Assembly (NCBI RefSeq): GCF_050320075.1
Contig: NZ_CP190021.1
Length of the DNA: 64,000 bases
Reading direction: 5' to 3' (one strand)
Source: Escherichia coli
Lineage (GTDB): Bacteria > Pseudomonadota > Gammaproteobacteria > Enterobacterales > Enterobacteriaceae
A program made the translations under genes and the position numbers. Below, one piece after another: positions 1 to 63,950 of this stretch. The notes under the pieces are model-generated. The model searched no databases. It was not told the origin of the DNA and saw nothing but the letters and a program-made list of their open reading frames with translations. Numbering within the stretch: position 1 is the first letter of the stretch; each line of letters starts with the position of its first letter.

Positions 1-98
1 TAACGAAGTGTGAACCAGAAACCACCCGCAAAGCAAGCCGTAAATCTGTAAAAACGCAGGAAACTGTCCTGTCTGCCCTGCTGGCGCAGACGGAGGAA

Positions 99-1952
99 GT
101 GAGCGTGCCGCTGGCCTCGCTGATTAAATCACCGCTGAATGTGCGCACGGTGCCGTATTCTGCGGAGTCCGTCAGCGAACTGGCGGAGTCCATTAAGGGC
201 GTCGGACTGCTGCAGAATCTGGTCGTGCATACCCTGCCTGGTGACCGTTACGGTGTCGCCGCAGGTGGTCGCCGACTGGCTGCACTCAACATGCTGGCAG
301 AGCGTGGCATCATTCCGGCTGACTGGCCTGTACGCGTGAAGGTTATTCCGCAGGAGCTGGCGACGGCTGCATCAATGACTGAAAACGGTCATCGTCGGGA
401 TATGCACCCTGCCGAACAGATTGCCGGATTCCGTGCGATGGCGCAGGAAGGCAAAACGCCTGCACAAATCGGTGATTTGCTGGGCTATTCGCCCCGCCAC
501 GTTCAGCGAATGCTGAAACTGGCAGACCTTGCGCCTGTCATCCTCGATGCGCTGGCAGAAGACCGCATCACCACAGAGCACTGTCAGGCGCTGGCGCTGG
601 AGAACGACACCGCGCGTCAGGTGCAGGTGTTTGAAGCCGCCTGCCAGTCGGGATGGGGCGGTAAACCGGAAGTACAGACCATTCGTCGTCTGGTGACCGA
701 AAGTGAAGTGGCGGTGGCAGGTAACAGTAAATTCCGCTTCGTGGGGGCTGATGCTTTCTCACCTGACGAACTGCGTACTGATTTGTTCAGCGATGACGGG
801 GACGGTTATGTCGACCGCGTGGCGCTCGATGCTGCCCTGCTGGAAAAACTCCAGGCTGTCGCTGAACACCTTCGGGAAGCCGAAGGCTGGGAATGGTGCG
901 CCGGACGCATGGAGCCTGTCGGTGAGTGCCGTGAGGATGCCGGAACATACCGCTGTCTGCCGGAGCCGGAAGCGGTGCTGACGGAGGCAGAAGAAGAACG
1001 CCTGAACGAACTGATGACGCGTTACGACGCGCTGGAAAACCAGTGTGAGGAATCCGACCTGCTGGAAGCAGAAATGAAGCTGATGCGCTGCATGGCGAAG
1101 GTCAGGGCGTGGACGCCGGAGATGCGTGCCGGAAGTGGCGTGGTGGTGTCCTGGCGTTATGGAAACGTATGTGTCCAGCGTGGTGTGCAGTTGCGCAGTG
1201 AAGATGACGCGACTGATGACGCTGACCGCACGGAACAGGTGCAGGAGAAAGCGTCAGTGGAGGAAATCAGTCTGCCGTTGCTGACGAAAATGTCTTCCGA
1301 ACGCACGCTGGCAGTCCAGGCAGCACTGATGCAGCAACCGGACAAATCTCTGGCACTGCTGGCATGGACGCTCTGCCTGAATGTGTTTGACAGCGGAGCG
1401 TACAGTAAACCAGCACAAATCAGCCTGGAATGTAAACATTATTCGCTGACCAGCGATGCGCCGTCAGGGAAGGAAGGTGCCGCATTCCTGGCGCTGATGG
1501 CAGAAAAAGCCCGTCTTGCGGCCCTGTTACCGGAGGGATGGTCACGGGACATGACGACGTTCCTGTCACTCAGTCAGGAGGTGCTGTTATCCCTGCTCAG
1601 TTTCTGCACCGCATGCAGCCTTAACGGTGTCCAGACCCGCGAGTGTGGTCGCACGTCACGCAGTCCGCTTGACTCACTGGAGAGCGCCATCGGTTTTCAC
1701 ATGCGCGACTGGTGGCAGCCGACGAAAGCAAACTTCTTCGGACACCTGAAAAAGCCGCAGATTATCGCAGCCCTGAATGATGCCGGACTGTCCGGTGCCG
1801 CACGGGACGCAGAGAAGATGAAGAAAGGCGATGCCGCTGAACATGCAGAGTTCCATATGAAAGACAACCGCTGGGTGCCTGGCTGGATGTGTTCACCACG
1901 TCCACAGACGGATGCCACTGAACGCGCCGATAACCTGGCTGATGCCGCCTGA
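99..1952 (+). CDS. ParB-like nuclease domain protein of the plasmid leading region; the frame is open to the window start, so the 5' end may lie outside the window
   Basis: 617-aa ORF with ParB N-terminal-like motif GGRRLAALNM and HTH-like segment; sits immediately upstream of psiB as in F/IncI leading regions; no stop codon upstream in frame back to position 3. Confidence 0.75.
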   Translation: MSVPLASLIKSPLNVRTVPYSAESVSELAESIKGVGLLQNLVVHTLPGDRYGVAAGGRRLAALNMLAERGIIPADWPVRVKVIPQELATAASMTENGHRRDMHPAEQIAGFRAMAQEGKTPAQIGDLLGYSPRHVQRMLKLADLAPVILDALAEDRITTEHCQALALENDTARQVQVFEAACQSGWGGKPEVQTIRRLVTESEVAVAGNSKFRFVGADAFSPDELRTDLFSDDGDGYVDRVALDAALLEKLQAVAEHLREAEGWEWCAGRMEPVGECREDAGTYRCLPEPEAVLTEAEEERLNELMTRYDALENQCEESDLLEAEMKLMRCMAKVRAWTPEMRAGSGVVVSWRYGNVCVQRGVQLRSEDDATDDADRTEQVQEKASVEEISLPLLTKMSSERTLAVQAALMQQPDKSLALLAWTLCLNVFDSGAYSKPAQISLECKHYSLTSDAPSGKEGAAFLALMAEKARLAALLPEGWSRDMTTFLSLSQEVLLSLLSFCTACSLNGVQTRECGRTSRSPLDSLESAIGFHMRDWWQPTKANFFGHLKKPQIIAALNDAGLSGAARDAEKMKKGDAAEHAEFHMKDNRWVPGWMCSPRPQTDATERADNLADAA

Positions 1953-2003
1953 TGAACAACCACACCGCCCCGCCGGAGACGGGGCGGCAGAGGGAGAAAT
2001 ACG

Positions 2004-2441
2004 ATGATGAATACCGAACTGACACTGAATGCCCTGCAGTCCATGAATGCCCAGGAATATGAAGAAATCCGTGCTGCGGGAAGCGATATGCGCCGTAATC
2101 TCACTCACGAGGTGATGCGTAAAGTGGACGCACCGGCTAACTGGATGATGAACGGAGAGTATGGCAGCGAGTTCGGGGGCTTTTTCCCCGTCCAGGTTCG
2201 TTTCACGCCAGCCCACGAACGTTTCCACCTGGCATTATGTTCGCCGGGAGACGTCTCTCAGCTCTGGATGCTGGTTCTGGTGAATGGTGGTGGACAGCCT
2301 TTCGCCGTCGTTCAGGTGCAACATATCTTCACGCCTGCCGCGATCAGTCACACGCTGGCGCTTGCCGCGACACTGGATGCGCAGGGATACAGTGTTAACG
2401 ACATCATCCATATCCTGATGGCAGAAGGAGGTCAGGCATGA
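2004..2441 (+). CDS. psiB: plasmid SOS inhibition protein PsiB
   Basis: 145-aa product closely matches recalled PsiB sequence ([40 protein letters not shown]); correct size and position. Confidence 0.9.
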
Positions 2442-3157
2442 GCGCACGTTCACGGGCACTGATCCCCCTCAGCGCAGAACAACAGGCCGCCATGCAGGCG
2501 GTGGCTGTCACAGAACAACGTCGTCGTCAGGGACGCACACTTTCAGCATGGCCTTATGCCACCGCTTTCTTTCGCTGCCTGAATGGCAGTCGCCGGATTT
2601 CGCTGACCGATCTCCGCTTTTTTGCCCCTGCGCTGACGAAGGAGGAATTTCATGGCAACCGTCTCCTGTGGCTGGCTGCCGTGGATAAACTGATTGAAAG
2701 TTTTGGGGAAGTCTGTGTTCTTCCCCTGCCATCCGATGCGGGGCACCGTCTGTTCCCGTCCGTGCCTTTTCGTGAAGGTGAGCGTCGTCGTCAGAAAACC
2801 ACGCTGACAGAGCAGAAATACAGCCGCCAGCGGGAACGTGAGGCAGAACGACGGGAACTGGAATACCAGACATGTTTTGCTCAGGCGCAGATTGACCTTG
2901 CGTTTCATACTCCCGCCACGGTCGGAAGCTGGTTGTCCCGCTGGTCTGGTGTTGTTGAGGAGCATGATCTGGAAACGATTTTCTGGGGGTGGTGCGGGCG
3001 TTTTCCATCACTGTCATCATTTGACCGGTTTTTCTGGCAGGAGGAACCACTCTGGCGGCTGATTTTTGAAGCCGGTGAGGCCGGTCGTGGTGCACCGGTA
3101 CAGGTACGTGCACTTGAGCAGTGGATGATCCCGAACAAGCTGGAGAACGTAATATGA
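2438..3157 (+). CDS. psiA: PsiA protein
   Basis: 239 aa, start overlaps psiB stop (coupled), typical psiB-psiA arrangement and size. Confidence 0.8.
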
Positions 3158-3750
3158 TGAAATCAGACGAAAAATACCAGGTTCCCGCGTGGATGCGACC
3201 TCTGTTGCCGTTGCTCTGCAACACCGGGGGGAACGATCCGGAAGAACTGCTGAATGATACAGAAACCACTGCCAGTGCGAATGTTGTCCGTTATGTACTG
3301 ATAGTTGCTGTGCGGTCGCAGGTTGATCTGCTGCAGCTTCTGTACAGGAAAGGGCTGTTGCGCACAGAGATACCAGGTGGCTTTTCACCGGAAGAAGCGC
3401 AGGCACTCCTGGATAATCTGGTGCGCAGCCATATCAGCAAGGCGCTGTCGGGCGAGCGAATGGCAGCCCGTGACAGAAATGCCGATCTGGCCTGGATTGG
3501 ACAGCAACTGGTCGATGACGCCTGGTTTGTCCGTGCCACACTGGAAGCGCATGGGATGAGCGTCGGAAATGAGAGTCCCCCTGCTCCGCCGGAGACAATG
3601 CCGGACATACAGACACGGGAACTGGTGATGTTGATCAAGCGACTGGCATCATCGCTGAAAGCGGTGAAACCGGACAGTTGTGTGGTGCGTGAAGCGCAGG
3701 ACTGGCTGCGCGACAGAAAACTTGTGGATATCACAGATATTCTCCGGTGA
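3154..3750 (+). CDS. hypothetical leading-region protein, translationally coupled to psiA
   Basis: ATGA overlap with psiA stop at 3154-3157; GGAG RBS upstream; 198 aa; no recognisable motif. Confidence 0.55.
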   Translation: MMKSDEKYQVPAWMRPLLPLLCNTGGNDPEELLNDTETTASANVVRYVLIVAVRSQVDLLQLLYRKGLLRTEIPGGFSPEEAQALLDNLVRSHISKALSGERMAARDRNADLAWIGQQLVDDAWFVRATLEAHGMSVGNESPPAPPETMPDIQTRELVMLIKRLASSLKAVKPDSCVVREAQDWLRDRKLVDITDILR

Positions 3751-4211
3751 ACCAGGCATGTATATTTTACGCAGGGACACGCCGATCATGATCGTTTCAT
3801 ATCAGGGGTGGTCTGGAGGTCATGCGGCGTGTCCTCTGCACTCGCCGGAATAAGGAAGTCGCCGGCGGCTCCGCTTTTACCCGGCCATGCGGGGCATGGC
3901 CTTGTGGGGTTTCAGCTCTGTGGCCTCAGCGTCGTGTGCGGGCTGTGCCGTGCCTCCATCTTAGCCGGGCTGGCAGGGATGCAAGGGTACGCTTCGCCGC
4001 TGCGGTCACCCGGTCCCTCCTTCCCGTCTGCCGTGATTTTCCGGTCGTTCGTCCGCTCAGGTTTCGCGGCCTCACCCTGCAACTCCCGTCAGCCGTGTGC
4101 GTCAGGCTGCGGCTTCCCTTGCGCCCCTGCATCCCCGCCTTATCGCCCGGCTTTTATGGAGGCACGGCACCGCCCGGTGTCGCAGAACATGTGACTATGG
4201 AGGATTCGGGA

Positions 4212-4712
4212 ATGTCTGTTGTTGCACCTGCTGTATACGTTGGAACCTGGCACAAATACAACTGTGGAAGCATCGCCGGACGCTGGTTTGACCTGACCAC
4301 GTTTGATGATGAGCGCGACTTTTTCGCCGCCTGCCGTGCTCTTCACCAGGATGAAGCCGATCCTGAACTGATGTTTCAGGATTATGAGGGATTCCCGGGG
4401 AATATGGCCTCTGAATGCCATATCAACTGGGCCTGGGTTGAAGGCTTCCGCCTGGCACGGGATGAAGGCTGCGAAGAGGCTTATCGTCTCTGGGTGGAGG
4501 ATACCGGTGAGACGGATTTTGACACCTTCCGCGATGCCTGGTGGGGCGAGGCTGACAGTGAGGAGGCTTTTGCGGTTGAGTTCGCCAGTGATACCGGCCT
4601 GCTGGCTGACGTGCCGGAGACGGTGGCGCTCTATTTTGACTATGAGGCGTATGCGCGGGATTTATTCCTGGACTCCTTCACCTTTATTGACGGTCATGTG
4701 TTCCGTCGGTGA
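4212..4712 (+). CDS. ardA: antirestriction protein ArdA (166 aa, acidic DNA-mimic family)
   Basis: Start at ATG 4212 after GGAGGA RBS; sequence [36 protein letters not shown] and acidic composition match ArdA; the longer track ORF 3822-4712 is an Arg/Pro-rich artefact of the GC-rich leader. Confidence 0.85.
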
Positions 4713-5078
4713 TTTACTCCCCCGCTCCGGCGGGGGTATGGCCTGCCAGGCCGCCGGAAAACCCTGGCAGGCTTACGCCTGCCTGAAATGCAGGAGGGCC
4801 GCGCCTGCGGCGCTGCCCTTCCTGCCCGTCATGGTGTGAGGCATTTTTCTGTTATGTCGTTTCTGTTGTTCTGATTTCCGGAGGCGGGGACACCTTCGGC
4901 TCCCGGCTGCCTGGCGGCATCCGGTCGTCAGGCCCGACTCCGACAGGCAGCTGCTGGCGCACCCGCCAGTCTCCGCCGAACCCGCTGGCGCGGTTTCGGG
5001 CTGCCGCTACGGTCCGATGTCTGAAAAACCAGGCTTGCAGCGACCGTTCCGGTCGCGCCGCCCCTGTCGCGCCGGAAA

Positions 5079-5395
5079 CGGCGCTCCCTGCACACCTGAC
5101 GGTGTGTAAGGCCACTGCGCCTGATGGCGCAGTCAACCCTTCCGCCGCCACCCCTGCGGCCTGTTTCCCGCTGTGGACTTTCCGGGGGCTGGAGTAACCA
5201 CATCCCGTTTCAGCAGTCCAGGGGAAGATATACCGTCCACAAAATTTTTAGCCATAAACCCGGCAAAAAATTTTGCGTCCGCCCCCGGACAGCTGCCCCG
5301 TGACGTGGTGACGGACGCCCCATCGGAAAGGTCCACTGCGGGGAGAAACCCCGAAGAAGTGGACGGCAGAAGGGGCTTTCGCCCCTCCGGGGAGC
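5079..5395 (-). promoter_or_regulatory. conserved structured non-coding element, copy 1 (candidate single-strand promoter / ssi-type element of the transferred strand)
   Basis: About 320 bp that align at roughly 80 percent identity with 7957-8275; frameshifting indels between copies argue against coding; lies directly upstream of ORF 5441. Confidence 0.5.
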
Positions 5396-5440
5396 AACCG
5401 GTCGGCCCGGCGACCTGATTCAGCAGAAGGAGACGTTTTC

Positions 5441-5875
5441 ATGACAGTCAGCAGCACGATTTCCGTTTTTTGCCGCGACGGGGTGTTCCGTACCGTTTAC
5501 TGCCACCTGCACGGGGAGCCGACCTGGAACGGTCGCATCCTGCATACCCACTATGCCACCGGTCAGCAGGCCGAAGCCCTGGTTGAACACGGTGATATCC
5601 GTTGCCTCGGTCCCCGTTGCGACAAACCCGCCGGGCATACGCTTCAGAACCCGGTGGACGGTGTGACGGCTTATTACGGACGTGACAGTGGTTTCCGGAT
5701 GGACAGTGAGGCGCGTGAGTACCGTTCTTTCAGGGAGGCTATTGCCACTGAAAGCACTGAAGAGGTGCGCTTCCATTATGTGTTCATCGACGGCTACTGG
5801 AAGGTGATGTACCGCACGCCGGAAGGCTGGAAGATGAAAGCGCTCGCGCTGGCACTGCGTCGCTGTCCGAAATGA
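5441..5875 (+). CDS. hypothetical protein (144 aa), first gene downstream of conserved element copy 1
   Basis: ORF with AGGAGA RBS (aagGAGAcgttttcATG); Cys/His-containing, no recognisable family. Confidence 0.6.
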   Translation: MTVSSTISVFCRDGVFRTVYCHLHGEPTWNGRILHTHYATGQQAEALVEHGDIRCLGPRCDKPAGHTLQNPVDGVTAYYGRDSGFRMDSEAREYRSFREAIATESTEEVRFHYVFIDGYWKVMYRTPEGWKMKALALALRRCPK

Positions 5876-5968
5876 AAAAAAGGCAGGGCGATAAACCCTG
5901 CCTCTCTCCGCCGGCGCTTCCCCGCCAGGAAGTCCGGCATCTCAATCACTATCTATGGAGATTATGCC

Positions 5969-6235
5969 ATGAGACCATCAATTATCTTCGCAACCGCCGA
6001 GTATGTAAAGCGTCTGCGTGAAGAGTGCCTGCGGGAGAATAAACCCCTGCACCGCCATACCCGCTTCAGACGTCAGGAGCTGGCACAGGATGAGATTAAC
6101 CCGGACGTCCTGGCGATGAGCGGCCATATCGCCAGACGCTGCAGTGAGCAGAAGCGGGTGCGTATCCCCGCTATGAAAGTCAGCGAATGGGGCCACCTGC
6201 TCCGCGCGCTTGAAATTGAGCGGGTCTGCCACTGA
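5969..6235 (+). CDS. hypothetical small basic protein (88 aa)
   Basis: ORF with GGAG RBS 9 nt upstream; Arg-rich; co-oriented directly after ORF 5441. Confidence 0.45.
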   Translation: MRPSIIFATAEYVKRLREECLRENKPLHRHTRFRRQELAQDEINPDVLAMSGHIARRCSEQKRVRIPAMKVSEWGHLLRALEIERVCH

Positions 6236-6299
6236 TTAACCCTTGCCGTCTGCCTGTGCAGGCGGCAGGATACGTTCAGACATCTCACCAGGAGGAACC

Positions 6300-7238
6300 G
6301 TGAGTCAGAAGAAAACCACCACGACGCCCACGCCGCATGATGCCGCGTTCCGGTCGTTCCTGGCGAATCCCGACGTCGCCAGAGATTTTCTGGAACTGCA
6401 TCTTCCGGCGGAGTACCGGCAGTTGTGCGACCTGTCCACGCTGAAGCTGGAACCCGCCACCTTTGTTGAGCCGGACCTGCATCAGTACGCCAGCGATATC
6501 CTCTGGAGTGTGAAAACCACCGGGGGTGAAGATGGCTATGTTTATACGCTCATCGAGCACCAGAGCACCGAAAATCTGTACATGCCTTTCCGCATGTTAC
6601 GTTACAGTGTGGCGGCGATGCAGAGACATCTGGAGCAGCACAAAACGTTGCCACTGGTGATTCCTGTACTGTTCTATCATGGTGAGCGCAGCCCGTACCC
6701 GTACAGCATGAACTGGCTGGACTGTTTTGAGAATCCGGCACTTGCGGCTAAAATATACACAAAGCCGTTTCCGCTGGTTGATATCACTGTCGTTGATGAC
6801 AATGAAATCATGAACCATCGCCGGATGGCCGCACTGACGCTGCTGATGAAGCATATCCGCCATCGTGACATGATGGAGCTGCTGGACAAACTCCCGCAGG
6901 TCATGGTGGAAATTTCAGACGAGCAGGTGCGTGTTCTGATTCATTACATCGTTAACGCAGGGGACTCTGTATCACCGGAATTTATGCGGGCGCTGGCTGA
7001 GCGTCTGCCGCAGCATGAGGATAAACTGATGACTATCGCAGAACGTCTTGAGCAAAAAGGTCGCCAGGAGGGCAGGATGGAAGGACGCATGGAAGGACGC
7101 ATGGAAGGACGCATGGAAGGAGCGCTTGAAAAAGCCCTGGCTATTGCGTGCCAGCTTCAGAAAATGGGGATGACGCCGGAGCAGATTAAGCAGGCTACCG
7201 GACTTTCCGATGACGAACTGAAGAAAATCACTCACTGA
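6300..7238 (+). CDS. Rpn-family (YhgA-like, PD-(D/E)XK) recombination-promoting nuclease / putative transposase
   Basis: GTG start after AGGAGG RBS; N-terminal HDAAFRSFL..ARDFL and core motifs typical of Rpn/YhgA proteins; C-terminal tail domain after a GRME tandem repeat. Confidence 0.8.
   Translation: MSQKKTTTTPTPHDAAFRSFLANPDVARDFLELHLPAEYRQLCDLSTLKLEPATFVEPDLHQYASDILWSVKTTGGEDGYVYTLIEHQSTENLYMPFRMLRYSVAAMQRHLEQHKTLPLVIPVLFYHGERSPYPYSMNWLDCFENPALAAKIYTKPFPLVDITVVDDNEIMNHRRMAALTLLMKHIRHRDMMELLDKLPQVMVEISDEQVRVLIHYIVNAGDSVSPEFMRALAERLPQHEDKLMTIAERLEQKGRQEGRMEGRMEGRMEGRMEGALEKALAIACQLQKMGMTPEQIKQATGLSDDELKKITH
7071..7118 (+). repeat. in-frame 12-bp tandem repeat x4 (ggacgcatggaa) encoding (GRME)4 in the Rpn linker
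   Basis: Three perfect units plus one imperfect unit read directly from sequence. Confidence 0.9.
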
Positions 7239-7249
7239 GTAAACATCAC

Positions 7250-7276
7250 AGCCCGGCAAAATGCCGGGCTTTTTTG
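7250..7276 (+). terminator. Rho-independent terminator after the Rpn gene
   Basis: Hairpin agcccggc-aaaat-gccgggct followed by a T-run. Confidence 0.7.
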
Positions 7277-7299
7277 TCAGCAGGAGCAGAGCAAATAGC

Positions 7300-7458
7300 A
7301 TGACGATTGCAGAACGTCTTATTCAAAAAGGCGCACTTGAAGTGGCGCGGGAAATAGCCTGCCGGCTGCGGGATATGGGCTGGACGCCGGAACGGATTCA
7401 GGAGGCAACCGGACTTTCCGGTGAAGAACTGAAAAAGCTGTTTCCTGATGAGCAGTAG
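7300..7458 (+). CDS. free-standing Rpn C-terminal tail-like small protein (52 aa)
   Basis: MTIAERLIQKG..GWTPERIQEATGLSGEELKKL parallels the Rpn tail MTIAERLEQKG..GMTPEQIKQATGLSDDELKKI; GGAG RBS upstream. Confidence 0.6.
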   Translation: MTIAERLIQKGALEVAREIACRLRDMGWTPERIQEATGLSGEELKKLFPDEQ

Positions 7459-7488
7459 CCTGGCATTCAGCCAGGCTGTGAATCACGC

Positions 7489-7740
7489 TCACACATCCTC
7501 TGCCGTTTCCCCCAGTTCATTTTCCAGTCGCCTGATGATATCTGCCTTACGCATCCCCTGCATGTGAGGCAGCAGGTCACGGACTGAAAGTGCCTGGGTG
7601 GTCCTCCAGACGGTGACGTCCACCTGTTCCGCATTTTCCCAGGCGTGCCATGTTCTCTGCGTCACGCCAAATTCTCTGGCCGCTTTTTCGCGTGACCAGA
7701 GCATGCTTTTTCGCCAGATTCGCAGTTCCCAGCCGGTCAT
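7489..7740 (-). CDS. small HTH DNA-binding regulator (83 aa)
   Basis: HTH-like segment REKAAREFGVTQRTWHAWE; promoter region carries twin palindromes. Confidence 0.6.
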   Translation of the reverse strand: MTGWELRIWRKSMLWSREKAAREFGVTQRTWHAWENAEQVDVTVWRTTQALSVRDLLPHMQGMRKADIIRRLENELGETAEDV

Positions 7741-7754
7741 AAAACACCTTTGAA

Positions 7755-7775
7755 AAAGTGAAAAAACTTCACTTT
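7755..7775. promoter_or_regulatory. palindromic operator-like site AAAGTGAA-N5-TTCACTTT (copy 1)
   Basis: Perfect 8-5-8 inverted repeat just upstream of the HTH gene start. Confidence 0.6.
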
Positions 7776-7821
7776 ATTTTATCATCACAATTGCCAAATC
7801 AGCGCGATAAATAAGTGTAAA

Positions 7822-7842
7822 AAAGTGAAGAAATTTCACTTT
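7822..7842. promoter_or_regulatory. palindromic operator-like site AAAGTGAA-N5-TTCACTTT (copy 2)
   Basis: Second identical 8-5-8 inverted repeat 67 bp from copy 1. Confidence 0.6.
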
Positions 7843-7956
7843 TTTTGCTTGTAAATGTCGTGCGGTTTTCTCTGTTTTCACCTGTGCGGGAGTGGTGTGC
7901 CAGTGACCACCACATGCCATTGTTGTGCCGTCGTTTTTCTTCAGTCGCGCCGTATG

Positions 7957-8275
7957 CGGCGCTCCCTGCACACCTTACGGTGTGTAAGGCCACTGCGCCT
8001 GATGGCGCAGCTGTCTCTGCCTGTCTGCCGCCGCACTGCGGCCTGTTCTCCGCAGACGGACTTTCCGGGGGTACATACATGACCACATCCCGTTTCAGTC
8101 GTCCAGGGGGGAGATGTACCAGCCACAAAACTTTTTGCCGCAGGCGTCAAAAACTTTTGCGTCTGCCCCCGGACAACTGCCCCGTGACGTGGTGAGCGTC
8201 CCCCGTCGGAAAGGTCCACTGCGGGGAAATCCCCGAAGACCCGGACGGCAGAAGGAGCTTCGCTCCTCCGGGAAA
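7957..8275 (-). promoter_or_regulatory. conserved structured non-coding element, copy 2
   Basis: Homologous to 5079-5395; directly upstream of ORF 8317. Confidence 0.5.
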
Positions 8276-8316
8276 TGACCTGGCTGTCCCGGCAGTCGTG
8301 ACGATGAGGAGACAAT

Positions 8317-9168
8317 GTGATGAATCAGACTTTACCCACTGCTGACCTGAATACTGCCGGCACGACAGATGTTATTCCGTCTGTGGCTATCGACCGCATC
8401 ATCGCGCAGCGTAACGAAGGTATTGCACTGTTCATGCAGGCGATGGAATGCCTGGCGACAGCGCGCAAGATTCTGCTCGATGCGTCAGGTGATATTTTTC
8501 TTTACGGGTTTGAAGACTGCGTGACTGATTCCGTTCGTCGCATAGATAAACCGGAAGAAGCGAAAAGGAATATCACCCGTCTTGCCGACCGGAAAATCTG
8601 GGACCGCCTGATGACAGATACGGGCATGTACACCTTCATGAGTTCATGCCAGCGTGATGAGTGGAACAGCCAGCTGATGAGCGACACCTGTCCTGAAATC
8701 ACCCTGGACAATGTACTGGCAACATTCCGCCATCTGAATGCCTGCAAGATGCAGACATTTGAACAGGGACTGATTGATGTCTACCGGAAATTGTCATGGG
8801 ATTACAGAACCAATAATCCCTGCCGTCTGGGTAAGAAAATCATTATTGAAAACCTGCTGTACCGCTGGAGTAACGGGCGTGTGACGCTGGACTGCAGCGG
8901 ACGGGAGGCACTGGATGACCTGGTACGTCCGTTTTATCTGCTGGAGGGGCGCAACGTTCCTGACTTCAGGAACAGTATCGGGGCGCAGTATGGTGAATTT
9001 CTCGGGAACGGCGACAATGTCGGTAAGCTGTTAGAAGGGGAATATTTTACGGTGCGTGGCTACCAGAAAGGGACCGTACACATTGTCTTTAAGCGTTCTG
9101 ACCTTGTTGAAAAACTGAATGATATTATTGCACGGCATTATCCAGGTGCATTGCCGCCACGAGTCTGA
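8317..9168 (+). CDS. hypothetical protein (283 aa), last + strand gene of the leading region before oriT
   Basis: ORF with AGGAGA RBS; adjacent GTG and ATG candidate starts at 8317 and 8320; no confidently recognised domain. Confidence 0.6.
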   Translation: MMNQTLPTADLNTAGTTDVIPSVAIDRIIAQRNEGIALFMQAMECLATARKILLDASGDIFLYGFEDCVTDSVRRIDKPEEAKRNITRLADRKIWDRLMTDTGMYTFMSSCQRDEWNSQLMSDTCPEITLDNVLATFRHLNACKMQTFEQGLIDVYRKLSWDYRTNNPCRLGKKIIIENLLYRWSNGRVTLDCSGREALDDLVRPFYLLEGRNVPDFRNSIGAQYGEFLGNGDNVGKLLEGEYFTVRGYQKGTVHIVFKRSDLVEKLNDIIARHYPGALPPRV

Positions 9169-9180
9169 TTAAACAGAAAA

Positions 9181-9210
9181 GCCCTGGTATTTATGCCGGG
9201 GCTTTTTTTT
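9181..9210 (+). terminator. Rho-independent terminator after ORF 8317
   Basis: Hairpin gccctgg-tatttat-gccggggc followed by T8. Confidence 0.7.
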
Positions 9211-9253
9211 CTGTAATCATCATAATCTCAGAACACGATGTGACATTGTCACA

Positions 9254-9595
9254 TCAATTGTTGTTCATATCGATGCCATCTTTCCTGCCTGAATCTGTCT
9301 TTTTAGGTGCTGTTTTAGAGGAAGAACGGCGGGATGGTTTTTTCGATTCTGCTTCCCGAATAATGTCACGAAGTGCCTTCTCTCCTACTTCATACCCTGC
9401 ATTTTTGAGCGTGTCACGAACATCTGCCAGTGTATAACCCTTTGTCCTTACCAGGACAATAATGTCATCACGAATGGCATCAAGAAAATCACGCAATGTT
9501 TTCCGTTGAGCGGTGAGATCTGGCAATTCCGATAAAGCAGCTTTTGCCAGCTGGATGTCATCATCTGAGTAAAATTTTTTAGAAGCCATTGGCAC
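9254..9595 (-). CDS. hypothetical protein with Lys/Arg/Ser-rich basic C-terminal tail (113 aa), possible DNA-binding protein, directly beside oriT
   Basis: ORF on the opposite strand to the other leading-region genes; basic tail ESKKPSRRSSSKTAPKKTDSGRK. Confidence 0.5.
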   Translation of the reverse strand: MPMASKKFYSDDDIQLAKAALSELPDLTAQRKTLRDFLDAIRDDIIVLVRTKGYTLADVRDTLKNAGYEVGEKALRDIIREAESKKPSRRSSSKTAPKKTDSGRKDGIDMNNN

Positions 9596-9647
9596 TTTCT
9601 CTCCGTTTCATGTTGAAGTCTGATTTTATCATCAAAAACTGACTCCT

Positions 9648-9776
9648 GGCAGGGCTGCGCCCTGCCTCTGCCGTCTGCATAAGACTATGATGCACAAAAA
9701 TAACAGGCTATAATGGCCTGAAAAACGGGACAGGATGTGCAATTGTATAACCGCGCACGCGCGATTATACAATTGC
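9648..9776. promoter_or_regulatory. oriT: origin of transfer (oriT) with predicted nick site on the - strand
   Basis: Inverted repeat ggcagggc-tgc-gccctgcc (9648-9666); 12-bp inverted-repeat arms gcaattgtataa/ttatacaattgc (9739-9776); minus-strand core CATCCTG/TCCCG resembling IncP/IncI nick regions, placing the nick near 9730/9731. Confidence 0.7.
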
Positions 9777-9821
9777 CTCCTGGTCAGGGCTTCGCCCCGA
9801 CACCCCAGTAAGGAGCTGACC

Positions 9822-10154
9822 GTGAGTGATAAACGTCAAAGAAGTGGTAGTGAAAGACGGCAAAAGACGATCCTGAGAGCGGTCCGGTTCTCACCGGATG
9901 AGGATGAAACTATCTGTAAGAATGCTGAAGATTCCGGACTTACTGTATCTGCTTACATCCGAAATGCAGCACTGAATAAGCGAATTAACTCCCGTACAGA
10001 TGATGCTTTTCTGAAGGAGTTAATGAGACTGGGAAGGATGCAGAAGCATCTGTTTGTTCAGGGAAAAAGAACCGGTGACAAGGAATACGCAGAAGTGCTT
10101 GTTGCCATAACCGAACTTACAAATACATTGCGTAAACAGTTAATGGAAGGTTGA
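9822..10154 (+). CDS. nikA: relaxosome accessory protein NikA (ribbon-helix-helix, 110 aa)
   Basis: GTG start after AAGGAG RBS, next to oriT and upstream of the relaxase; expected size. Confidence 0.8.
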   Translation: MSDKRQRSGSERRQKTILRAVRFSPDEDETICKNAEDSGLTVSAYIRNAALNKRINSRTDDAFLKELMRLGRMQKHLFVQGKRTGDKEYAEVLVAITELTNTLRKQLMEG

Positions 10155-10164
10155 GGATTCTCCG

Positions 10165-12864
10165 GTGAATGCAGTCATTCCGAAAAAGAGAAGGGACGGC
10201 AAGTCTTCGTTCGAAGACCTGGTATCCTACGTCTCTGTCCGGGATGACATGACCGATGAGGAACTGGATTTATCTTCTTCTTCGCAGGCTGAACAACCGC
10301 ACCGAAGCCGTTTCAGTCGCCTTGTTGATTATGCGACACGTCTTCGAAATGAGTCATTCGTGGCGCTGGTTGATGTCATGAAGGACGGCTGCGAATGGGT
10401 CAACTTTTATGGTGTCACCTGCTTTCATAACTGTACTTCTCTTGAAACTGCCGCTGCAGATATGGAGTACATTGCCCGGCAGGCACACTATGCAAAAGAT
10501 GACACTGACCCTGTTTTTCACTACATCCTTTCCTGGCAGTCACATGAAAGCCCGCGTCCGGAACAGATTTATGACAGTGTACGTCATACGCTGAAATCAC
10601 TCGGCCTTGCCGACCATCAGTATGTCTCTGCCGTGCATACTGATACAGATAATCTGCACGTCCATGTGGCTGTTAACCGGGTACACCCTGAAACGGGTTA
10701 TCTGAACCGGTTATCATGGAGTCAGGAAAAACTCAGTCGTGCCTGCCGTGAGCTTGAACTGAAGCATGGTTTTGCTCCGGATAACGGTTGCTGGGTCCAT
10801 GCGCCGGGAAATCGTATCGTTCGCAAAACTGCCGTTGAACGTGATCGCCAGAACGCCTGGACACGCGGAAAAAAACAAACTTTTCGTGAGTATGTTGCGC
10901 AGACAGCGGTCGCTGGTTTACGCAGTGAACCTGTACATGACTGGTTATCCCTGCATCGTCGTCTTGCGGAAGATGGTCTGTACCTGTCTCAGATGGACGG
11001 AAAATTTCTGGTGATGGATGGCTGGGATCGCAACAGGGAAGGTGTACAGCTTGACTCGTTTGGTCCCTCCTGGTGTGCAGAAAAACTCATGAAAAAAATG
11101 GGTGACTACACGCCAGTGCCAAAAGACATTTTCAGCCAGGTGGAAGCACCAGGACGCTATAATCCGGACTTCATTGCAGCTGATGTTCGCCCGGAAAAAA
11201 TCGCTGAAACAGAAAGTCTGCAGCAGTATGCCTGTCGTCATCTTGGAGAACGTCTGCCGGAAATGGCACGGGAAGGACGGCTGGAAAACTGCCTGGCTAT
11301 TCACCGCACACTGGCTGAAGCGGGATTATGGATGCGTGTTCAGCATGGTCACCTGGTTATCTGTGACGGTTATGATCATAACCAGACTCCCGTTCGTGCT
11401 GACAGCGTATGGTCACTGCTGACGCTCGACAATGTGAATCAACTCGATGGTGGCTGGCAGCCTGTACCAACAGATATTTTCCGCCAGGTTACGCCAACAG
11501 AACGCTTCCGTGGTCGTCGTATGGAGAGCTGTCCTGCGACCGATAAAGAATGGCACCGTATGCGTACAGGTACGGGGCCGCAGGGGGCTATCAAACGCGA
11601 ACTGTTTTCTGACAAAGAAAGTCTGTGGGGATACAGCATCAGCCATTGTAGCCCTCAGATTGAAGAAATGATCACACAGGGTGAGTTTACCTGGCAGCGT
11701 TGTCATGAGTTGTTTGCACAACAGGGACTGATGCTACAGAAACAACATCACGGGCTTGTTGTCGTTGATGCTTTTAATCATGAGCAAACGCCGGTGAAAG
11801 CCAGCAGCATTCATCCTGATCTGACACTGGGGCGTGCGGAGCCACAGGCCGGACCTTTTGTGAGTGCTCCAGCAGATTTGTTTGACAGGGTGCAACCTGA
11901 AAATCGCTATAACCCGGAGCTGGCTGTCAGTGACAGGTACGGGGTCAGCAGTAAACGTGACCCAATGCTGCGCCGGCAGCGACGTGAAGCCAGGGCTGAG
12001 GCCCGTGCTGACCTGCGTGCCCGCTATCTGGCATGGCGTGAACAATGGCGTAAACCGGATCTGCGTTATGGGGAACGTTGTCGGGAAATTCATCAGGCAT
12101 GCCGTCTGCGGAAGTCACACATTCGTGCGCAGTACGATGATCCGGCATTACGTAAGCTGCATTATCACATTGCAGAAGTTCAGCGAATGCAGGCATTGAT
12201 CAGGCTGAAAGAAGACATCAGGGATGAGCGACAGAAACTTATTGCTGACGGGAAATGGTATCCACCCTCTTACCGTCAGTGGGTCGAAATTCAGGCTGCT
12301 CAGGGAGACAGGGCTGCTGTATCGCAGTTGAGAGGCTGGGATTATCGCGATCGCCGTAAAGACAAGTCACGCACAACGACGACAGACCGCTGTGTCGTGC
12401 TTTGTGAACCGGGCGGAACGCCGGTATACGGTAATACCGGTGATCTCGAGGCCCGTCTGCAGAAGAACGGGAGTGTTCGTTTCCGTGACCGTCGGACGGG
12501 AGAGTTTGTCTGTACGGATTATGGTGACAGAGTTGTTTTCCGTAATCACCATGACCGCAATGCGCTGGCAGATAAACTGGATTTGATTGCACCGGTATTA
12601 TTCGGGCGTGATCCACGCATGGGGTTTGAACCAGAAGGAAACGACAAACAATTTAACCAGGTCTTTGCTGAAATGGTTGCCTGGCATAATGTGACAGGCC
12701 GTACCGGTCACGAAGACTACAGGATTACGCGACCGGACGTGGATCATCACCGTGAAGGAAGTGAACGCTACTACCGCGATTATATCGCGGCGAACAGCAA
12801 CGATGACGCATCACTGCCTCCGCCGGAGCAGGATAAACGCTGGGAACCGCCTTCTCCAGGTTAA
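10165..12864 (+). CDS. nikB: conjugative relaxase NikB (899 aa)
   Basis: Relaxase histidine triad HTDTDNLHVHVAVN; size and position match the IncI1 relaxase. Confidence 0.9.
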   Translation: MNAVIPKKRRDGKSSFEDLVSYVSVRDDMTDEELDLSSSSQAEQPHRSRFSRLVDYATRLRNESFVALVDVMKDGCEWVNFYGVTCFHNCTSLETAAADMEYIARQAHYAKDDTDPVFHYILSWQSHESPRPEQIYDSVRHTLKSLGLADHQYVSAVHTDTDNLHVHVAVNRVHPETGYLNRLSWSQEKLSRACRELELKHGFAPDNGCWVHAPGNRIVRKTAVERDRQNAWTRGKKQTFREYVAQTAVAGLRSEPVHDWLSLHRRLAEDGLYLSQMDGKFLVMDGWDRNREGVQLDSFGPSWCAEKLMKKMGDYTPVPKDIFSQVEAPGRYNPDFIAADVRPEKIAETESLQQYACRHLGERLPEMAREGRLENCLAIHRTLAEAGLWMRVQHGHLVICDGYDHNQTPVRADSVWSLLTLDNVNQLDGGWQPVPTDIFRQVTPTERFRGRRMESCPATDKEWHRMRTGTGPQGAIKRELFSDKESLWGYSISHCSPQIEEMITQGEFTWQRCHELFAQQGLMLQKQHHGLVVVDAFNHEQTPVKASSIHPDLTLGRAEPQAGPFVSAPADLFDRVQPENRYNPELAVSDRYGVSSKRDPMLRRQRREARAEARADLRARYLAWREQWRKPDLRYGERCREIHQACRLRKSHIRAQYDDPALRKLHYHIAEVQRMQALIRLKEDIRDERQKLIADGKWYPPSYRQWVEIQAAQGDRAAVSQLRGWDYRDRRKDKSRTTTTDRCVVLCEPGGTPVYGNTGDLEARLQKNGSVRFRDRRTGEFVCTDYGDRVVFRNHHDRNALADKLDLIAPVLFGRDPRMGFEPEGNDKQFNQVFAEMVAWHNVTGRTGHEDYRITRPDVDHHREGSERYYRDYIAANSNDDASLPPPEQDKRWEPPSPG

Positions 12865-17482: not shown

Positions 17483-17770
17483 GACAAAGTCTCCATTTCT
17501 GGAATTTAAATCAAACGGAAAGGTTAAAAATTTATTTGCAGGCGATAAGAGCTAACCAGAGGAATTAGCCGTGTGATAAAAGGATTGTTGCAGATACGAA
17601 AGTCGTTAGAATAGCTGCGGGCGCTTGAGGCTGTATGCCGAAAGCGTTTTGTGGACGGTATACAGCAGAAAGCCCCTGGAGATTTTTTTATCAATCAACC
17701 AAGGGCTCTACTGTAATGCCTAGACAACATTATAGTAGCCCGATAACCGCCGTAAGGCAATGGAGGGGCT

Positions 17771-17926
17771 ATGATGCCACAGCGAACGTTTTTAATGATG
17801 TTAATCGTCATCTGTGTGACGATTCTGTGTTTTGTCTGGATGGTGAGGGATTCGCTTTGCGGACTCCGGCTCCAGCAGGGAAACACAGTGCTTGTGGCAA
17901 CGTTAGCCTACGAAGTTAAACGTTAA
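17771..17926 (+). CDS. pndA: Hok-family type I toxin PndA (51 aa), absent from the ORF track because it is under 60 aa
   Basis: Translation MMPQRTFLMMLIVICVTILCFVWMVRDSLCGLRLQQGNTVLVATLAYEVKR has the Hok/PndA architecture (transmembrane helix plus conserved Cys); GGAGG RBS; an overlapping upstream frame (17635-17919) fits a mok/pndC-like reading frame. Confidence 0.85.
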   Translation: MMPQRTFLMMLIVICVTILCFVWMVRDSLCGLRLQQGNTVLVATLAYEVKR

Positions 17927-17966: not shown

Positions 17967-18402
17967 CGAAGGCTGACCTCATTGCGCCCTTTCTTCTTCA
18001 ATGAAGCGTATCCGGTATTGTTTCATTTCCCCTGAAGCCGATTAGCTCCAGCCGAATGCCTTTGCCATCCGGGGCCACGTTCTGCATTTCGCAGATACCA
18101 CGTCGGGTCATGAGTGTGAAGGCTGTCATTGCCAGCATGGCTAACGCATTTTCCTCGCTTCCGCTGCGTTTCTCGAGAGCATCGGCAATTTATTCTATGC
18201 TCCCCACCTGAAAGCAAGAGTCGAATTCTTTACTCCACTTTTCTGACATCGGATTTTCTCTCTGTATTTATGGGTAGTTATCGAACTGAATGTGCCAGTT
18301 TTTTCAGGAGACGGCAAAGTTGAGATGGTTGGTTCTGATTCAAAGCATGAGTTTCCCCGGTGTGACGGGCATGTCGGGCGGATTTTGAGAAACAACAGAT
18401 GT

Positions 18403-18433
18403 AAAAAAACCGACTGGTGAGGTCGGTTTTTTT
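18403..18433. terminator. bidirectional Rho-independent terminator
   Basis: A-run, hairpin aaccgac-tggtgag-gtcggtt, then T7. Confidence 0.7.
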
Positions 18434-18457
18434 ACTGTTCCGTTACAGAGTGGGTGG

Positions 18458-18489
18458 CTCTGGTCGGAAAAGAACTGTCTATAACTGAC
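18458..18489 (+). repeat. 32-bp direct repeat, copy 1 (ctctggtcggaaaagaactgtctataactgac)
   Basis: Matches 18646-18677 at 31 of 32 positions. Confidence 0.9.
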
Positions 18490-63884: not shown

Positions 63885-63950
63885 AAGGAAAACCCCCACT
63901 ATCTTTCTTACGAACTTGGCGGAACGACGAAAGATAGTGGGGGCCTCACA
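63885..63950 (-). ncRNA. candidate antisense Inc RNA of an IncI/IncB-type replicon, complementary to the repZ-leader stem-loop I; rep genes would lie beyond the window end
   Basis: + strand stem cccccactatcttt / aaagatagtggggg (63893-63943) with a 23-nt loop containing TTGGCG, the recalled target-loop motif of ColIb-P9-type copy control. Confidence 0.4.

What the first reader, a model, noticed from the sequence alone, without database searches (positions are those of the whole stretch)
5441..6235. Two-gene module of unknown function immediately downstream of conserved element copy 1
ORF 5441-5875 (144 aa, several Cys/His) and ORF 5969-6235 (88 aa, Arg-rich) are co-oriented with psiB and ardA, each has a GGAG-type RBS, and neither carries a motif I can assign. 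Leading regions typically carry anti-restriction, anti-SOS and other anti-defence genes, so a pair placed behind a putative early promoter is a candidate new anti-defence or establishment function.
Basis: inference. Interest (0 to 1): 0.65.

Follow-up and report, generated by a model that had tools for sequence, protein, structure and literature searches.

The report
Two uncharacterised early-entry plasmid genes
These are two real but functionally unknown genes that an IncI1 resistance plasmid switches on as soon as its DNA enters a new cell. Both are already catalogued. They are independent genes rather than a pair, and the second seems to carry a previously unnoticed antisense-RNA off-switch.

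Summary
ORF 5441-5875 (144 aa, orfA) and ORF 5969-6235 (88 aa, orfB) are genuine genes on the + strand, in the leading region of an IncI1 plasmid. They sit directly behind a Frpo/ssi-type single-strand promoter.

Both are already catalogued. They are Hp16 and Hp17 of pESBL, dispensable for transfer in TnSeq. They are also families 23 and 1 of the 100 largest leading-region families in Samuel et al. 2024. The "candidate anti-defence" idea is that paper's published hypothesis and remains untested.

New here:
- **orfA label.** The widespread "PndC" label is a misnomer.
- **orfA family.** It belongs to about 2,000 clusters in bacteria, archaea and large phages. It has enzyme-like conserved His/Asp/Arg motifs, a confident AlphaFold model and no match to any solved fold. 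A 52%-identical allele occupies the same slot between 96%-identical flanks.
- **orfB family.** It is the basic YdaB/YdfB family, confined to Enterobacterales plasmids and under strong purifying selection. Its upstream neighbours vary and a DNA methyltransferase gene often follows. The two genes are therefore not an obligate module.
- **Antisense RNA candidate.** A conserved antisense promoter inside orfB, plus two covarying hairpins ending in a U-run, predict a ~100-nt RNA covering its RBS and start codon.

The biochemical function of both proteins is still unknown.

The parts
5050..5420 (+). Frpo/ssi-type (class 1) single-strand DNA promoter element, 'copy 1'. It folds in the transferred (minus) strand and drives + sense transcription into orfA.
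   Evidence: It is repeated at 7944-8272 at 81% identity. It is 100% identical to pESBL 65155-65525, immediately upstream of Hp16. Its core palindrome is homologous to the F-type Frpo (PMC10912980). The ssDNA fold has z = -9.1. Promoter activity comes from the literature on pESBL (PMC12672017) and was not tested here.
5441..5875 (+). orfA, 144 aa. Synonyms: Hp16 of pESBL, 'ygcA', 'YdfA', and the mislabel 'PndC'. It is a divergent member of a large uncharacterised family found in mobile elements and phages (PHROG 1987 / 23089).
5875..5974 (-). Candidate cis-antisense RNA of about 100 nt. The inferred start is about 7 nt downstream of the -10 box. It would cover the orfB start codon and Shine-Dalgarno sequence and contains stem-loops H2 and H1. 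This is a prediction only.
   Evidence: The layout is conserved in 12 sequences from IncI, IncF and other Enterobacterales plasmids.
5981..6009 (-). Antisense sigma-70-like promoter inside orfB codons 5-14: -35 TTTACA (6009-6004), 17-nt spacer, -10 GATAAT (5986-5981).
   Evidence: It matches 10 of 12 consensus positions and is one of three promoter-like sites in 2.7 kb. The homologous site scores 9-10/12 in all 12 family loci, with a 17-nt spacer in 11 of them; in L006 a 16-nt alternative ties with it.
5910..5938 (-). Stem-loop H2 (GCCGG...CCGGC) in the orfB leader / antisense RNA.
   Evidence: 90% of cells are paired, and 5 of 9 pairs show compensatory changes. None of 500 shuffles reached the observed paired percentage or covariation score (arms listed).
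5875..5902 (-). Stem-loop H1 (5882-5902) followed on the minus strand by a run of 7 T (5875-5881). This is an intrinsic-terminator shape on the strand opposite to orfB. It has no T-run on the + strand.
   Evidence: 100% of cells are paired in 12 sequences, and 2-3 pairs show compensatory changes. None of 500 shuffles reached the observed values. The composite motif occurs once in the 64-kb window, against 0 expected.
5969..6235 (+). orfB, 88 aa, basic. Synonyms: Hp17 of pESBL, and the YdaB / YdfB / YgdA family.

Best explanation
These are two independent 'zygotic' genes of an IncI1 plasmid.

When the transferred (minus) strand enters a recipient, the ssi element at 5050-5420 folds into a promoter-like hairpin. 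Host RNA polymerase then transcribes orfA and orfB before the complementary strand is made. This step is shown for the near-identical pESBL by others and is inferred here from sequence identity.

orfA is a diverged member of a very large family that spans phages and other mobile elements. Its invariant His/Asp/Arg/Tyr positions look like a small-molecule or nucleotide-binding active site. I take it to be an accessory host-interaction (counter-defence) protein, either an enzyme or a binder derived from one. It evolves by swapping its central part between alleles. This is inferred.

orfB is a small, very basic, three-helix protein of the YdaB/YdfB family. That family is the most abundant protein family enriched in leading regions. 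I take it to be a nucleic-acid-binding establishment factor. This is inferred from charge, conservation and position.

orfB synthesis appears to be limited to the single-strand window. Once the DNA is double-stranded, a promoter inside orfB on the opposite strand would make a ~100-nt antisense RNA. That RNA would cover the orfB ribosome-binding site and start codon and end at a conserved terminator, shutting off translation. This is inferred from conserved sequence and covariation. No RNA has been observed.
For: Plasmid type and position:
- nikA/nikB, psiB/psiA, ardA and the repZ pseudoknot identify the plasmid.
- orfA and orfB differ from Hp16 and Hp17 of pESBL by one residue each.
- The three ssi copies of pESBL lie before ssb, Hp16 and Hp22.
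- ssi1-3 are the strongest of six 5'-RACE-mapped ssDNA promoters, whose operons are induced up to about 500-fold at 15 min (PMC12672017).

orfA:
- Family size is 1,981 clusters.
- PHROG 1987 matches at E 5e-21.
- Homologs occur in jumbo and T4-like phages, inside blocks of small early genes.
- One homolog lies beside ArdC-like genes.
- Near-invariant positions are T3, Y20, H22, D24, H66, R81, D82, Y113 and W120.
- The AlphaFold model has pLDDT 95.9.
- A second allele at 52.5% identity sits in the same slot, with flanks about 96% identical and no DNA alignment between 5496 and 5837.

orfB:
- dN/dS is 0.06-0.07.
- pI is 9.9, and the family median is 10.7.
- The model has three helices at pLDDT 82.
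- In F-like plasmids it is the first gene after the Frpo repeat.
- It is family 1 of the top-100 list, with 4,739 ORFs.

Antisense RNA:
- The promoter scores 9-10/12 in 12 of 12 loci, with a 17-nt spacer in 11 of them.
- The H1 terminator is 100% paired with compensatory changes.
- H2 is 90% paired, with 5 covarying pairs.
- G-U pairs favour the minus strand: about 7 cells against 2.
- Every locus has a U-run.
Against: - No biochemical or genetic activity is known for either protein.
- Neither gene is needed for transfer into a laboratory strain.
- The window's orfA has lost several of the family's most conserved residues: T3V, D24H, Y26E, S54R, R83S and E85F. It may therefore not be catalytically active.
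- The antisense promoter lies in codons for conserved residues (S-I-I/V and Y-V-K/Q). Part of its conservation could be a by-product of protein constraint.
- Both hairpins would also form in the sense mRNA leader and in the transferred single strand of DNA. They do not prove that an antisense RNA exists.
- The text I could read of the pESBL RNA-seq paper does not name Hp16 or Hp17 as induced. The link rests on my mapping of the repeat.
Confidence: 0.5

Rival explanations
1. orfB and the antisense RNA form a type I toxin-antitoxin-like addiction module, similar to SymE/SymR. In this reading orfB is a toxic basic DNA-binding protein and the short, unstable antisense RNA is its antidote. Cells that lose the plasmid would be killed or arrested.
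For: - The geometry matches: an antisense promoter just inside the coding region, an RNA covering the SD and start codon, and an intrinsic terminator.
- Toxin-antitoxin genes are over-represented in leading regions (PMC11541004).
- orfB is strongly basic.
- That SymE is a basic nucleoid-binding toxin comes from my own knowledge and was not tested here.
Against: - pESBL TnSeq gives Hp17 a probability of 1.00 of being non-essential and flags no maintenance effect.
- orfB is not hydrophobic like Hok or Pnd toxins.
- The same plasmid already carries a true pnd/sok module at 17619-17776.
- Toxicity has never been shown.
Confidence: 0.15
2. The conserved A-run hairpin and second hairpin are not an antisense RNA. 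They act either in the sense mRNA leader, for stability, processing or translational control, or in the transferred single-stranded DNA, as a priming signal or a roadblock to complementary-strand synthesis. The promoter-like hexamers inside orfB would then be a side effect of conserved codons.
For: - Hairpins form equally in both strands.
- The minus strand is the transferred strand, so G-T wobble pairs would also be tolerated in ssDNA.
- The hexamers overlap invariant residues S4, I5 and V13.
Against: - A run of 4-7 A precedes H1 in all 12 loci, giving a U-run after the hairpin on the minus strand only. That is the signature of an RNA terminator and has no obvious use in DNA or in the sense leader.
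- All 12 loci keep a T at the synonymous position that gives the A of the -35 'ACA'.
- All 12 loci have a site at the homologous position scoring 9-10/12 with a 17-nt spacer, though in L006 a 16-nt alternative scores equally.
Confidence: 0.25
3. orfA is PndC, a component of the pnd (hok/sok-type) post-segregational killing system. This is how NCBI and UniProt annotate it, and Samuel et al. file it as 'Hok/Sok TA related'.
For: The name appears in many records and in the published table.
Against: - The only sok/pnd RNA match in the window is at 17619-17776, about 12 kb away.
- No RNA family matches the stretch 1-12000 at E<=1 except two chance hits elsewhere in that stretch.
- In pESBL the real PndC is a frame at 79766-79969 overlapping PndA, and Hp16 is a separate gene.
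- orfA relatives occur in phages, archaea and metagenomes without any hok-like gene.
Confidence: 0.02
4. orfA is decaying or neutral cargo, a former enzyme gene with no present role in establishment. It would be kept only because it lies between the ssi promoter and orfB.
For: - The window copy departs from the family consensus at six of its most conserved positions.
- TnSeq shows no transfer defect.
Against: - The reading frame is intact, and the protein is at least 99% identical in 1,685 plasmid records.
- The model folds with pLDDT 95.9.
- A second full-length allele is maintained in the same slot.
Confidence: 0.15

Closest known systems
Hp16 and Hp17 of pESBL-EA11 (IncI1). In R64-style annotation the names are ygcA for orfA and, by my inference from the name counts in the Samuel table, ygdA for orfB
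   Same: They are the same genes, with one amino-acid difference each. They have the same spacing and the same ssi repeat upstream.
   Different: Nothing of substance differs. Their function is equally unknown there.
YdaB of F-like plasmids, family 1 in Samuel et al. 2024
   Same: - orfB shares 42-44% identity with these homologs.
- The invariant C-terminal motif is V-x-I-P-A-M...G...L-R-x-L-E...R.
- The position downstream of a Frpo/ssi element is shared, as is the leader with two hairpins.
   Different: - The F-type proteins are 76 aa and lack residues 19-30 of the IncI form.
- They are followed by DUF3560 and a SAM methyltransferase rather than by an Rpn nuclease gene.
PHROG 1987 / 23089 (for example GAP32 gp348, KVP40.0229 and S-PM2p016)
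   Same: orfA aligns over residues 1-126 at E 5e-21 and shares the MxTRS, YCHxDGY, GHSF, YGRDRGE and EYxYxF motifs.
   Different: - The plasmid copy has replaced T3, D24, Y26, S54, R83 and E85, and is basic (pI 8.3) where the family is acidic (median 5.2).
- The GAP32-type proteins carry an extra C-terminal domain.
SymE/SymR and FinP/traJ: cis-antisense RNAs that cover the RBS of a plasmid or chromosomal gene
   Same: The predicted geometry matches: a short structured antisense RNA that starts just inside or beside the coding region, covers the SD and start codon, and ends at an intrinsic terminator. The properties of SymR and FinP come from my own knowledge.
   Different: - There is no sequence or Rfam similarity.
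- The RNA itself has not been observed.
- The target is a leading-region gene driven by a single-strand promoter. The antisense promoter could therefore fire only after second-strand synthesis.
ArdA, KlcA/ArdB, PsiB and M.EcoGIX: characterised leading-region establishment genes
   Same: They share the region, the orientation and the single-strand-promoter-driven early expression.
   Different: There is no sequence similarity for either protein. There is no fold similarity for orfA. No fold search could be run for orfB.

Membership tests
Pnd / Hok-Sok post-segregational killing system (the 'PndC' label of orfA) | PndC is a reading frame that overlaps the PndA/Hok toxin gene and is translationally coupled to it. 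| tested here: not met
   No Hok_Gef-type ORF overlaps 5441-5875. In pESBL, PndC (79766-79969) overlaps PndA (79821-79976) far from Hp16.
Pnd / Hok-Sok post-segregational killing system (the 'PndC' label of orfA) | A Sok/PndB-type antisense RNA lies at the locus. | tested here: not met
   The Rfam sok match is at 17619-17776 only. Nothing matches at 4700-6300 even at E<=1.
PHROG 1987 / leading-region family 23 (uncharacterised) | A significant profile match over most of the protein. | tested here: met
   PHROG 1987 matches at E 5.3e-21 over residues 1-126, and PHROG 23089 at E 4.8e-19. There are 1,981 related clusters.
PHROG 1987 / leading-region family 23 (uncharacterised) | The family's near-invariant residues are retained (T3, Y20, H22, D24, S54, H66, R81, D82, Y113, W120). 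| tested here: inconclusive
   Y20, H22, H66, R81, D82, Y113 and W120 are kept. T3V, D24H and S54R are changed.
YdaB / YdfB / YgdA (leading-region family 1) | Sequence homology, including the invariant C-terminal motif V-x-I-P-A-M...G..L-R-x-L-E..R. | tested here: met
   See alignments A3 and A4. The profile search found 504 proteins, some named YdaB or YdfB by their sources. The family is listed in PMC11541004 supplementary file 3.
YdaB / YdfB / YgdA (leading-region family 1) | The gene lies in the leading region, on the strand transcribable from the transferred strand. | tested here: met
   It lies about 3.5 kb from oriT/nikA and is co-oriented with psiB and ardA. The same holds in 10 other plasmid lineages.
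HU/IHF superfamily (considered for orfB) | A significant match to an HU-family profile. | tested here: inconclusive
   PF14908 matches 5 of 54 family members at E<=1e-3, with a best value of 1.2e-5 on 40 residues. It does not match the window copy. hhalign against canonical HU/IHF gives probability 2.4%. No HU sequence appears in the PDB profile search.
HU/IHF superfamily (considered for orfB) | The HU fold: two helices followed by a beta-sheet with DNA-embracing arms. | tested here: not met
   The AlphaFold model has three helices and no strands, at pLDDT 82.
Frpo/ssi class 1 single-strand DNA promoter (upstream element) | Sequence homology to F Frpo / ColIb ssi, and a long hairpin in the transferred strand. 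| tested here: met
   The element is 79% identical over the palindromic core to the pO157 Frpo and 81% to window copy 2. The ssDNA fold reaches -170.9 kcal/mol with z = -9.1.
Frpo/ssi class 1 single-strand DNA promoter (upstream element) | Transcription initiation from single-stranded DNA in the recipient. | not testable with these tools
   This is reported for pESBL ssi1-3 by RNA-seq and 5' RACE (PMC12672017). The window element is 100% identical to the pESBL copy before Hp16.
Type I toxin-antitoxin / cis-antisense control (considered for orfB) | A cis-encoded antisense RNA overlaps the translation start of the target. | tested here: inconclusive
   A promoter, two covarying stem-loops and a U-run are conserved in 12 loci. 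No transcript data are available.
Type I toxin-antitoxin / cis-antisense control (considered for orfB) | The protein is toxic when the antisense RNA is absent. | not testable with these tools
   pESBL TnSeq calls Hp17 non-essential. That result does not address toxicity.
Known anti-defence proteins (ArdA, ArdB/KlcA, ArdC, Acr, nucleotide sponges, Acb/Apyc enzymes) | Sequence or fold similarity to a characterised member. | tested here: not met
   - No Pfam or NCBIfam hit for either protein.
- All AFDB50 neighbours are uncharacterised.
- The published screen found no anti-CRISPR or anti-restriction hit for family 1.

The most novel reading that the evidence does not exclude
The YdaB/YdfB family (orfB) is the most abundant and still unexplained protein family of plasmid leading regions. 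It may be governed by a 'strandedness timer'. It would be made from a single-strand promoter only while the incoming DNA is single-stranded. As soon as the DNA becomes double-stranded, a conserved cis-antisense RNA whose promoter needs duplex DNA would silence it. This would be a new regulatory logic for plasmid establishment genes, and it would imply that orfB is harmful or useless outside the entry window.

Independently, orfA would represent a new enzyme-like fold, shared by plasmids and large phages, that acts on a host defence component.
Probability: 0.25. Interest if true: 0.75.

Novelty: already known. Interest (0 to 1): 0.42.

Why it matters
IncI1 and IncF plasmids are major carriers of ESBL and other resistance genes. 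The first minutes after entry decide whether a transfer succeeds.

orfB belongs to the largest protein family enriched in leading regions, and nobody knows what it does. A conserved antisense switch would give a concrete, cheap experiment to probe it. It would also explain how early genes are shut off.

orfA shows that one widely used database name, 'PndC', is wrong. That name has already led a major survey to file the family under toxin-antitoxin. orfA instead points to a large family shared by phages and plasmids, with a fold not seen in any solved structure. That makes it a reasonable target for structure determination and defence-panel screens.

None of this changes the fact that the loci themselves are common and already catalogued.

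Tried and rejected
- **Library searches.** Pfam, NCBIfam, PADLOC and PDB sequence searches found nothing usable for either protein, alone or as profiles (36/40, 67, 68/75, 117). PHROGs gave only unnamed families for orfA and nothing for orfB.
- **Fold search of the orfA model.**
  - Foldseek against PDB gave a best E of 0.48.
  - AFDB50 returned only uncharacterised relatives.
- **HU/IHF hypothesis for orfB.** It was suggested by PF14908 hits in a minority of members. hhalign probability is 2.4% and the model is all-helical, so I kept it as a weak lead only.
- **An '80% allele' of orfA with dN/dS 0.77.** I rejected it. The difference is two compensating single-base indels in an error-prone assembly. 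Several 'divergent' orfB entries (P0093, P0080, P0065) have the same look and were dropped.
- **Is the gene upstream of orfB in other plasmids a hidden orfA relative?** No. hmmsearch with the orfA profile found nothing among 11 neighbours.
- **Are the methyltransferases downstream of orfB in different plasmids homologous?** DUF4942 and N6_Mtase are not.
- **Prior art for the antisense RNA.**
  - IesR-1/PSLT047 of pSLT is an unrelated locus.
  - The Hft region of pESBL lies between traA and repY and is unrelated.
  - No held paper links ydaB to an antisense RNA.
- **The 'ydfB' named in an R64 comparison (PMC8004404).** It is a different gene near repZ/rfsF.
Full report
**What the window is**

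The window comes from an IncI1-type conjugative plasmid.
- It carries nikA (9735-10154) and the 899-aa relaxase nikB (10165-12864).
- It also carries psiB, psiA, ardA and a ParB-like gene, and the repZ pseudoknot at its far end.
- The stretch 4800-6300 is 100% identical to many Escherichia, Salmonella and Klebsiella plasmids typed IncI/MOBP/MPF_I. At least 840 records are 99% identical or more.
- oriT lies just upstream of nikA. The genes at 1-9200 are therefore the leading region, and the minus strand is the transferred strand. This follows the pESBL map (PMC4288162; PMC12672017).

**The observation**

Both are real genes.
- orfA (5441-5875) has about 2,000 homologous 50%-identity clusters. 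With an alignment of 76 relatives it gives an AlphaFold model of mean pLDDT 95.9.
- orfB (5969-6235) has 504 homologs. Against two other IncI plasmids it shows dN/dS of 0.06-0.07, as low as or lower than its neighbours ardA and the Rpn gene.

The upstream 'conserved element' is a Frpo/ssi-type element.
- It is repeated at 7944-8272.
- It shares the AT-rich central palindrome described for the F-type repeat.
- Its transferred strand folds with z = -9.1.

**These genes are already on record**

In pESBL-EA11 they are Hp16 (65546-65980) and Hp17 (66074-66340). Each differs from the window copy by one residue.
- TnSeq scored Hp16 as 0.76 non-essential, 0.24 maintenance and 0.00 transfer.
- Hp17 scored 1.00 non-essential.

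pESBL has exactly three copies of the ssi repeat: before ssb, before Hp16 and before Hp22/DUF4942.
- RNA-seq of donor-free transconjugants found six strongly induced leading-region operons.
- Three are driven by ssi1-3, the strongest class, and 5' RACE mapped their starts.
- The text I could read does not name Hp16 or Hp17. Their early induction is therefore my inference from the position of the repeat.

In the survey of leading regions by Samuel et al., orfB is family 1 of the top 100.
- The family has 4,739 ORFs and a median position of sixth ORF from oriT.
- It lies in T-strand orientation and is labelled 'Uncharacterized'.
- Its members carry the names YdaB, YdfB and YgdA.

orfA is family 23 in the same table, with 2,203 ORFs, filed as 'PndC (Hok/Sok TA related)'. 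That paper also states the general hypothesis that such families are probably anti-defence genes.

**orfA**

The 'PndC' name is wrong.
- The only sok/pnd RNA in the window is at 17619-17776.
- Nothing in 1-12000 resembles it.
- The true PndC of pESBL is a frame overlapping PndA about 14 kb from Hp16.

orfA belongs instead to a large family with no Pfam or NCBIfam model.
- The family matches PHROG 1987 and 23089, both of unknown function.
- Members occur in jumbo phages (GAP32, Serratia BF, Erwinia phages), in T4-like vibriophages and cyanophages, and in bacterial, archaeal and metagenomic sequences.
- In phages they sit within runs of small hypothetical genes.
- One enterobacterial relative lies next to ArdC-like genes. 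Another lies between a DNA ligase gene and DHFR.

The family alignment shows near-invariant polar residues. The motifs are MxTRS, YCHxDGY, GHSF, YGRDRGE and EYxYxF. This pattern looks like an active site or a ligand pocket.

The model matches no solved structure.
- Foldseek gives a best E of 0.48.
- All AlphaFold-database neighbours are uncharacterised.

The window copy is an outlier. It has replaced T3, D24, Y26, S54, R83 and E85. It is basic where the family is acidic.

A second allele, P0113, is 52.5% identical and occupies the same slot in other IncI plasmids.
- The DNA on both sides is about 96% identical.
- No nucleotide alignment exists between 5496 and 5837.

This is allele replacement of the core of the gene. 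It fits a protein under pressure to change partner, but it proves nothing about which partner. An apparent third allele proved to be an assembly artefact.

**orfB**

The protein is small and very basic, and is predicted as three helices. It is confined to Enterobacterales plasmids.

Homologs at about 40% identity occur in F-like plasmids. There it is YdaB, the first gene after the Frpo repeat. Homologs also occur in Enterobacter, Serratia, Pantoea, Paramixta and other plasmids, always in the leading region.

Its upstream neighbour differs between lineages and is never an orfA relative. The two genes of the finding are therefore adjacent, not a co-inherited module.

Its downstream neighbour is often a DNA methyltransferase gene, from unrelated families:
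- N6_Mtase in five loci.
- DUF4942 directly adjacent in two loci.
- DUF3560 plus a SAM methyltransferase in pO157.

In the window, about 2 kb separates orfB from the DUF4942 gene at 8317-9168. That stretch holds the Rpn nuclease gene, small ORFs, an XRE gene and the second ssi copy.

A weak HU-domain signal in a minority of members did not hold up.

**An unannotated feature: a candidate antisense RNA**

Between orfA and orfB lies a run of seven A followed by a 7-bp GC-rich hairpin (5882-5902). A second hairpin follows at 5910-5938.

I compared 12 loci of the family, including IncF types at about 40% protein identity. All have the same layout upstream of the orfB homolog.
- **First hairpin.** It is paired in 100% of cells, with compensatory changes at two to three positions. 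RNAalifold predicted it independently.
- **Second hairpin.** It is paired in 90% of cells, and five pairs covary. I chose the arms of this hairpin myself, so those counts lean towards the structure.
- **Strand.** The A-run becomes a U-run after the first hairpin on the minus strand only. That is the shape of an intrinsic terminator. G-U pairs favour the minus strand by about seven cells to two.
- **Promoter.** On the same strand, inside codons 5-14 of orfB, there is a -35/17-nt/-10 promoter-like site. It reads TTTACA...GATAAT and matches 10 of 12 consensus positions. The homologous site scores 9-10/12 in all 12 loci.
- **Predicted transcript.** It would start at about 5974 and cover the start codon and Shine-Dalgarno sequence. 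It would form the two stem-loops and end at about 5875.

Its template is the + strand, which does not exist in the recipient until the complementary strand is made. The RNA could therefore appear only after conversion to double-stranded DNA.

This suggests a simple timer. orfB would be translated only in the single-strand window and then shut off.

The caveats are real.
- The promoter overlaps conserved codons.
- The hairpins also exist in the sense leader and in the transferred DNA strand.
- No transcript has been seen.
- I found no description of such an RNA in the held literature.

**Verdict**

The finding is correct as an observation. As an interpretation it is ordinary, because the genes and the anti-defence hypothesis are already published.

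What remains open is the actual function of two very common early genes. I put about 0.35 on at least one of them acting against a host defence, and about 0.5 on the whole picture given under 'best explanation'. I put about 0.25 on the antisense 'strandedness timer' being real and functionally important.

Noticed in passing
window 5875-6009, minus strand: A candidate ~100-nt cis-antisense RNA to the orfB translation start. It has a promoter inside orfB, two covarying stem-loops and a U-run terminator. The layout is conserved in 12 loci of the YdaB/YdfB family, including IncF plasmids. I found no description of it in the held literature.
   Followed up: yes
window 5441-5875; true pnd/sok at window 17619-17776: The name 'post-segregation killing protein PndC' attached to orfA in NCBI and UniProt is a misnomer. 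It was carried into a published leading-region table as 'Hok/Sok TA related'.
   Followed up: yes
window 5496-5837 compared with L008/L009/L010 6056-6394: The core of orfA exists as two alleles at 52.5% amino-acid identity, with no DNA alignment between them. The flanks are about 96% identical, which points to recombinational replacement of the gene core.
   Followed up: partly
window 6236-8316; L015 4001-5202; L022 3001-4163: In Serratia and E. marmotae plasmids of the NikA/MOBP type, the orfB homolog is directly followed by the DUF4942 gene. In the window, about 2 kb lies between them. That stretch holds Rpn nuclease 6300-7238, small ORFs, an XRE gene at 7489-7740 (minus) and ssi copy 2. It looks like an insertion that brought or duplicated an ssi element.
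   Followed up: partly
L006, L007, L019, L020, L023, L015, L022, L005: orfB-family genes are very often immediately followed by a DNA methyltransferase gene. The families are mutually unrelated: N6_Mtase, DUF4942, and DUF3560 plus a SAM methyltransferase. This hints at a functional link between orfB and early methylation.
   Followed up: partly
window 7117-7225 and 7328-7436: A direct repeat at 75% identity. The C-terminal part of the Rpn nuclease gene is duplicated in the small ORF 7261-7458 (65 aa).
   Followed up: no
window 3822-4712, 4852-5151 (minus), 5173-5418: Long ORFs run through the GC-rich palindromic ssDNA-promoter elements. One is a 296-aa frame fused to ardA that some records call 'DUF1472'. 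Some GenBank records annotate these as proteins. They are probably artefacts of the repeat structure.
   Followed up: no
L024 6001-6435; proteins P0022, P0093, P0080, P0065: Assemblies with single-base indel errors create compensating frameshifts. These appear as 65-85%-identical 'alleles' in the protein collection and inflate dN/dS.
   Followed up: yes
window 18401-18488 (minus), 62945-63032 (minus), 63885-64000: Other Rfam matches above gathering score: AgrB antisense RNA, C4 antisense RNA and the repZ pseudoknot. The pseudoknot is cut by the window end.
   Followed up: no
L018 6170-8267: A CBASS-like gene set (SMODS, bacterial HORMA, AAA ATPase) lies a few kb from the orfB homolog on a Pantoea/Enterobacter plasmid. 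A defence system therefore sits next to the leading region.
   Followed up: no
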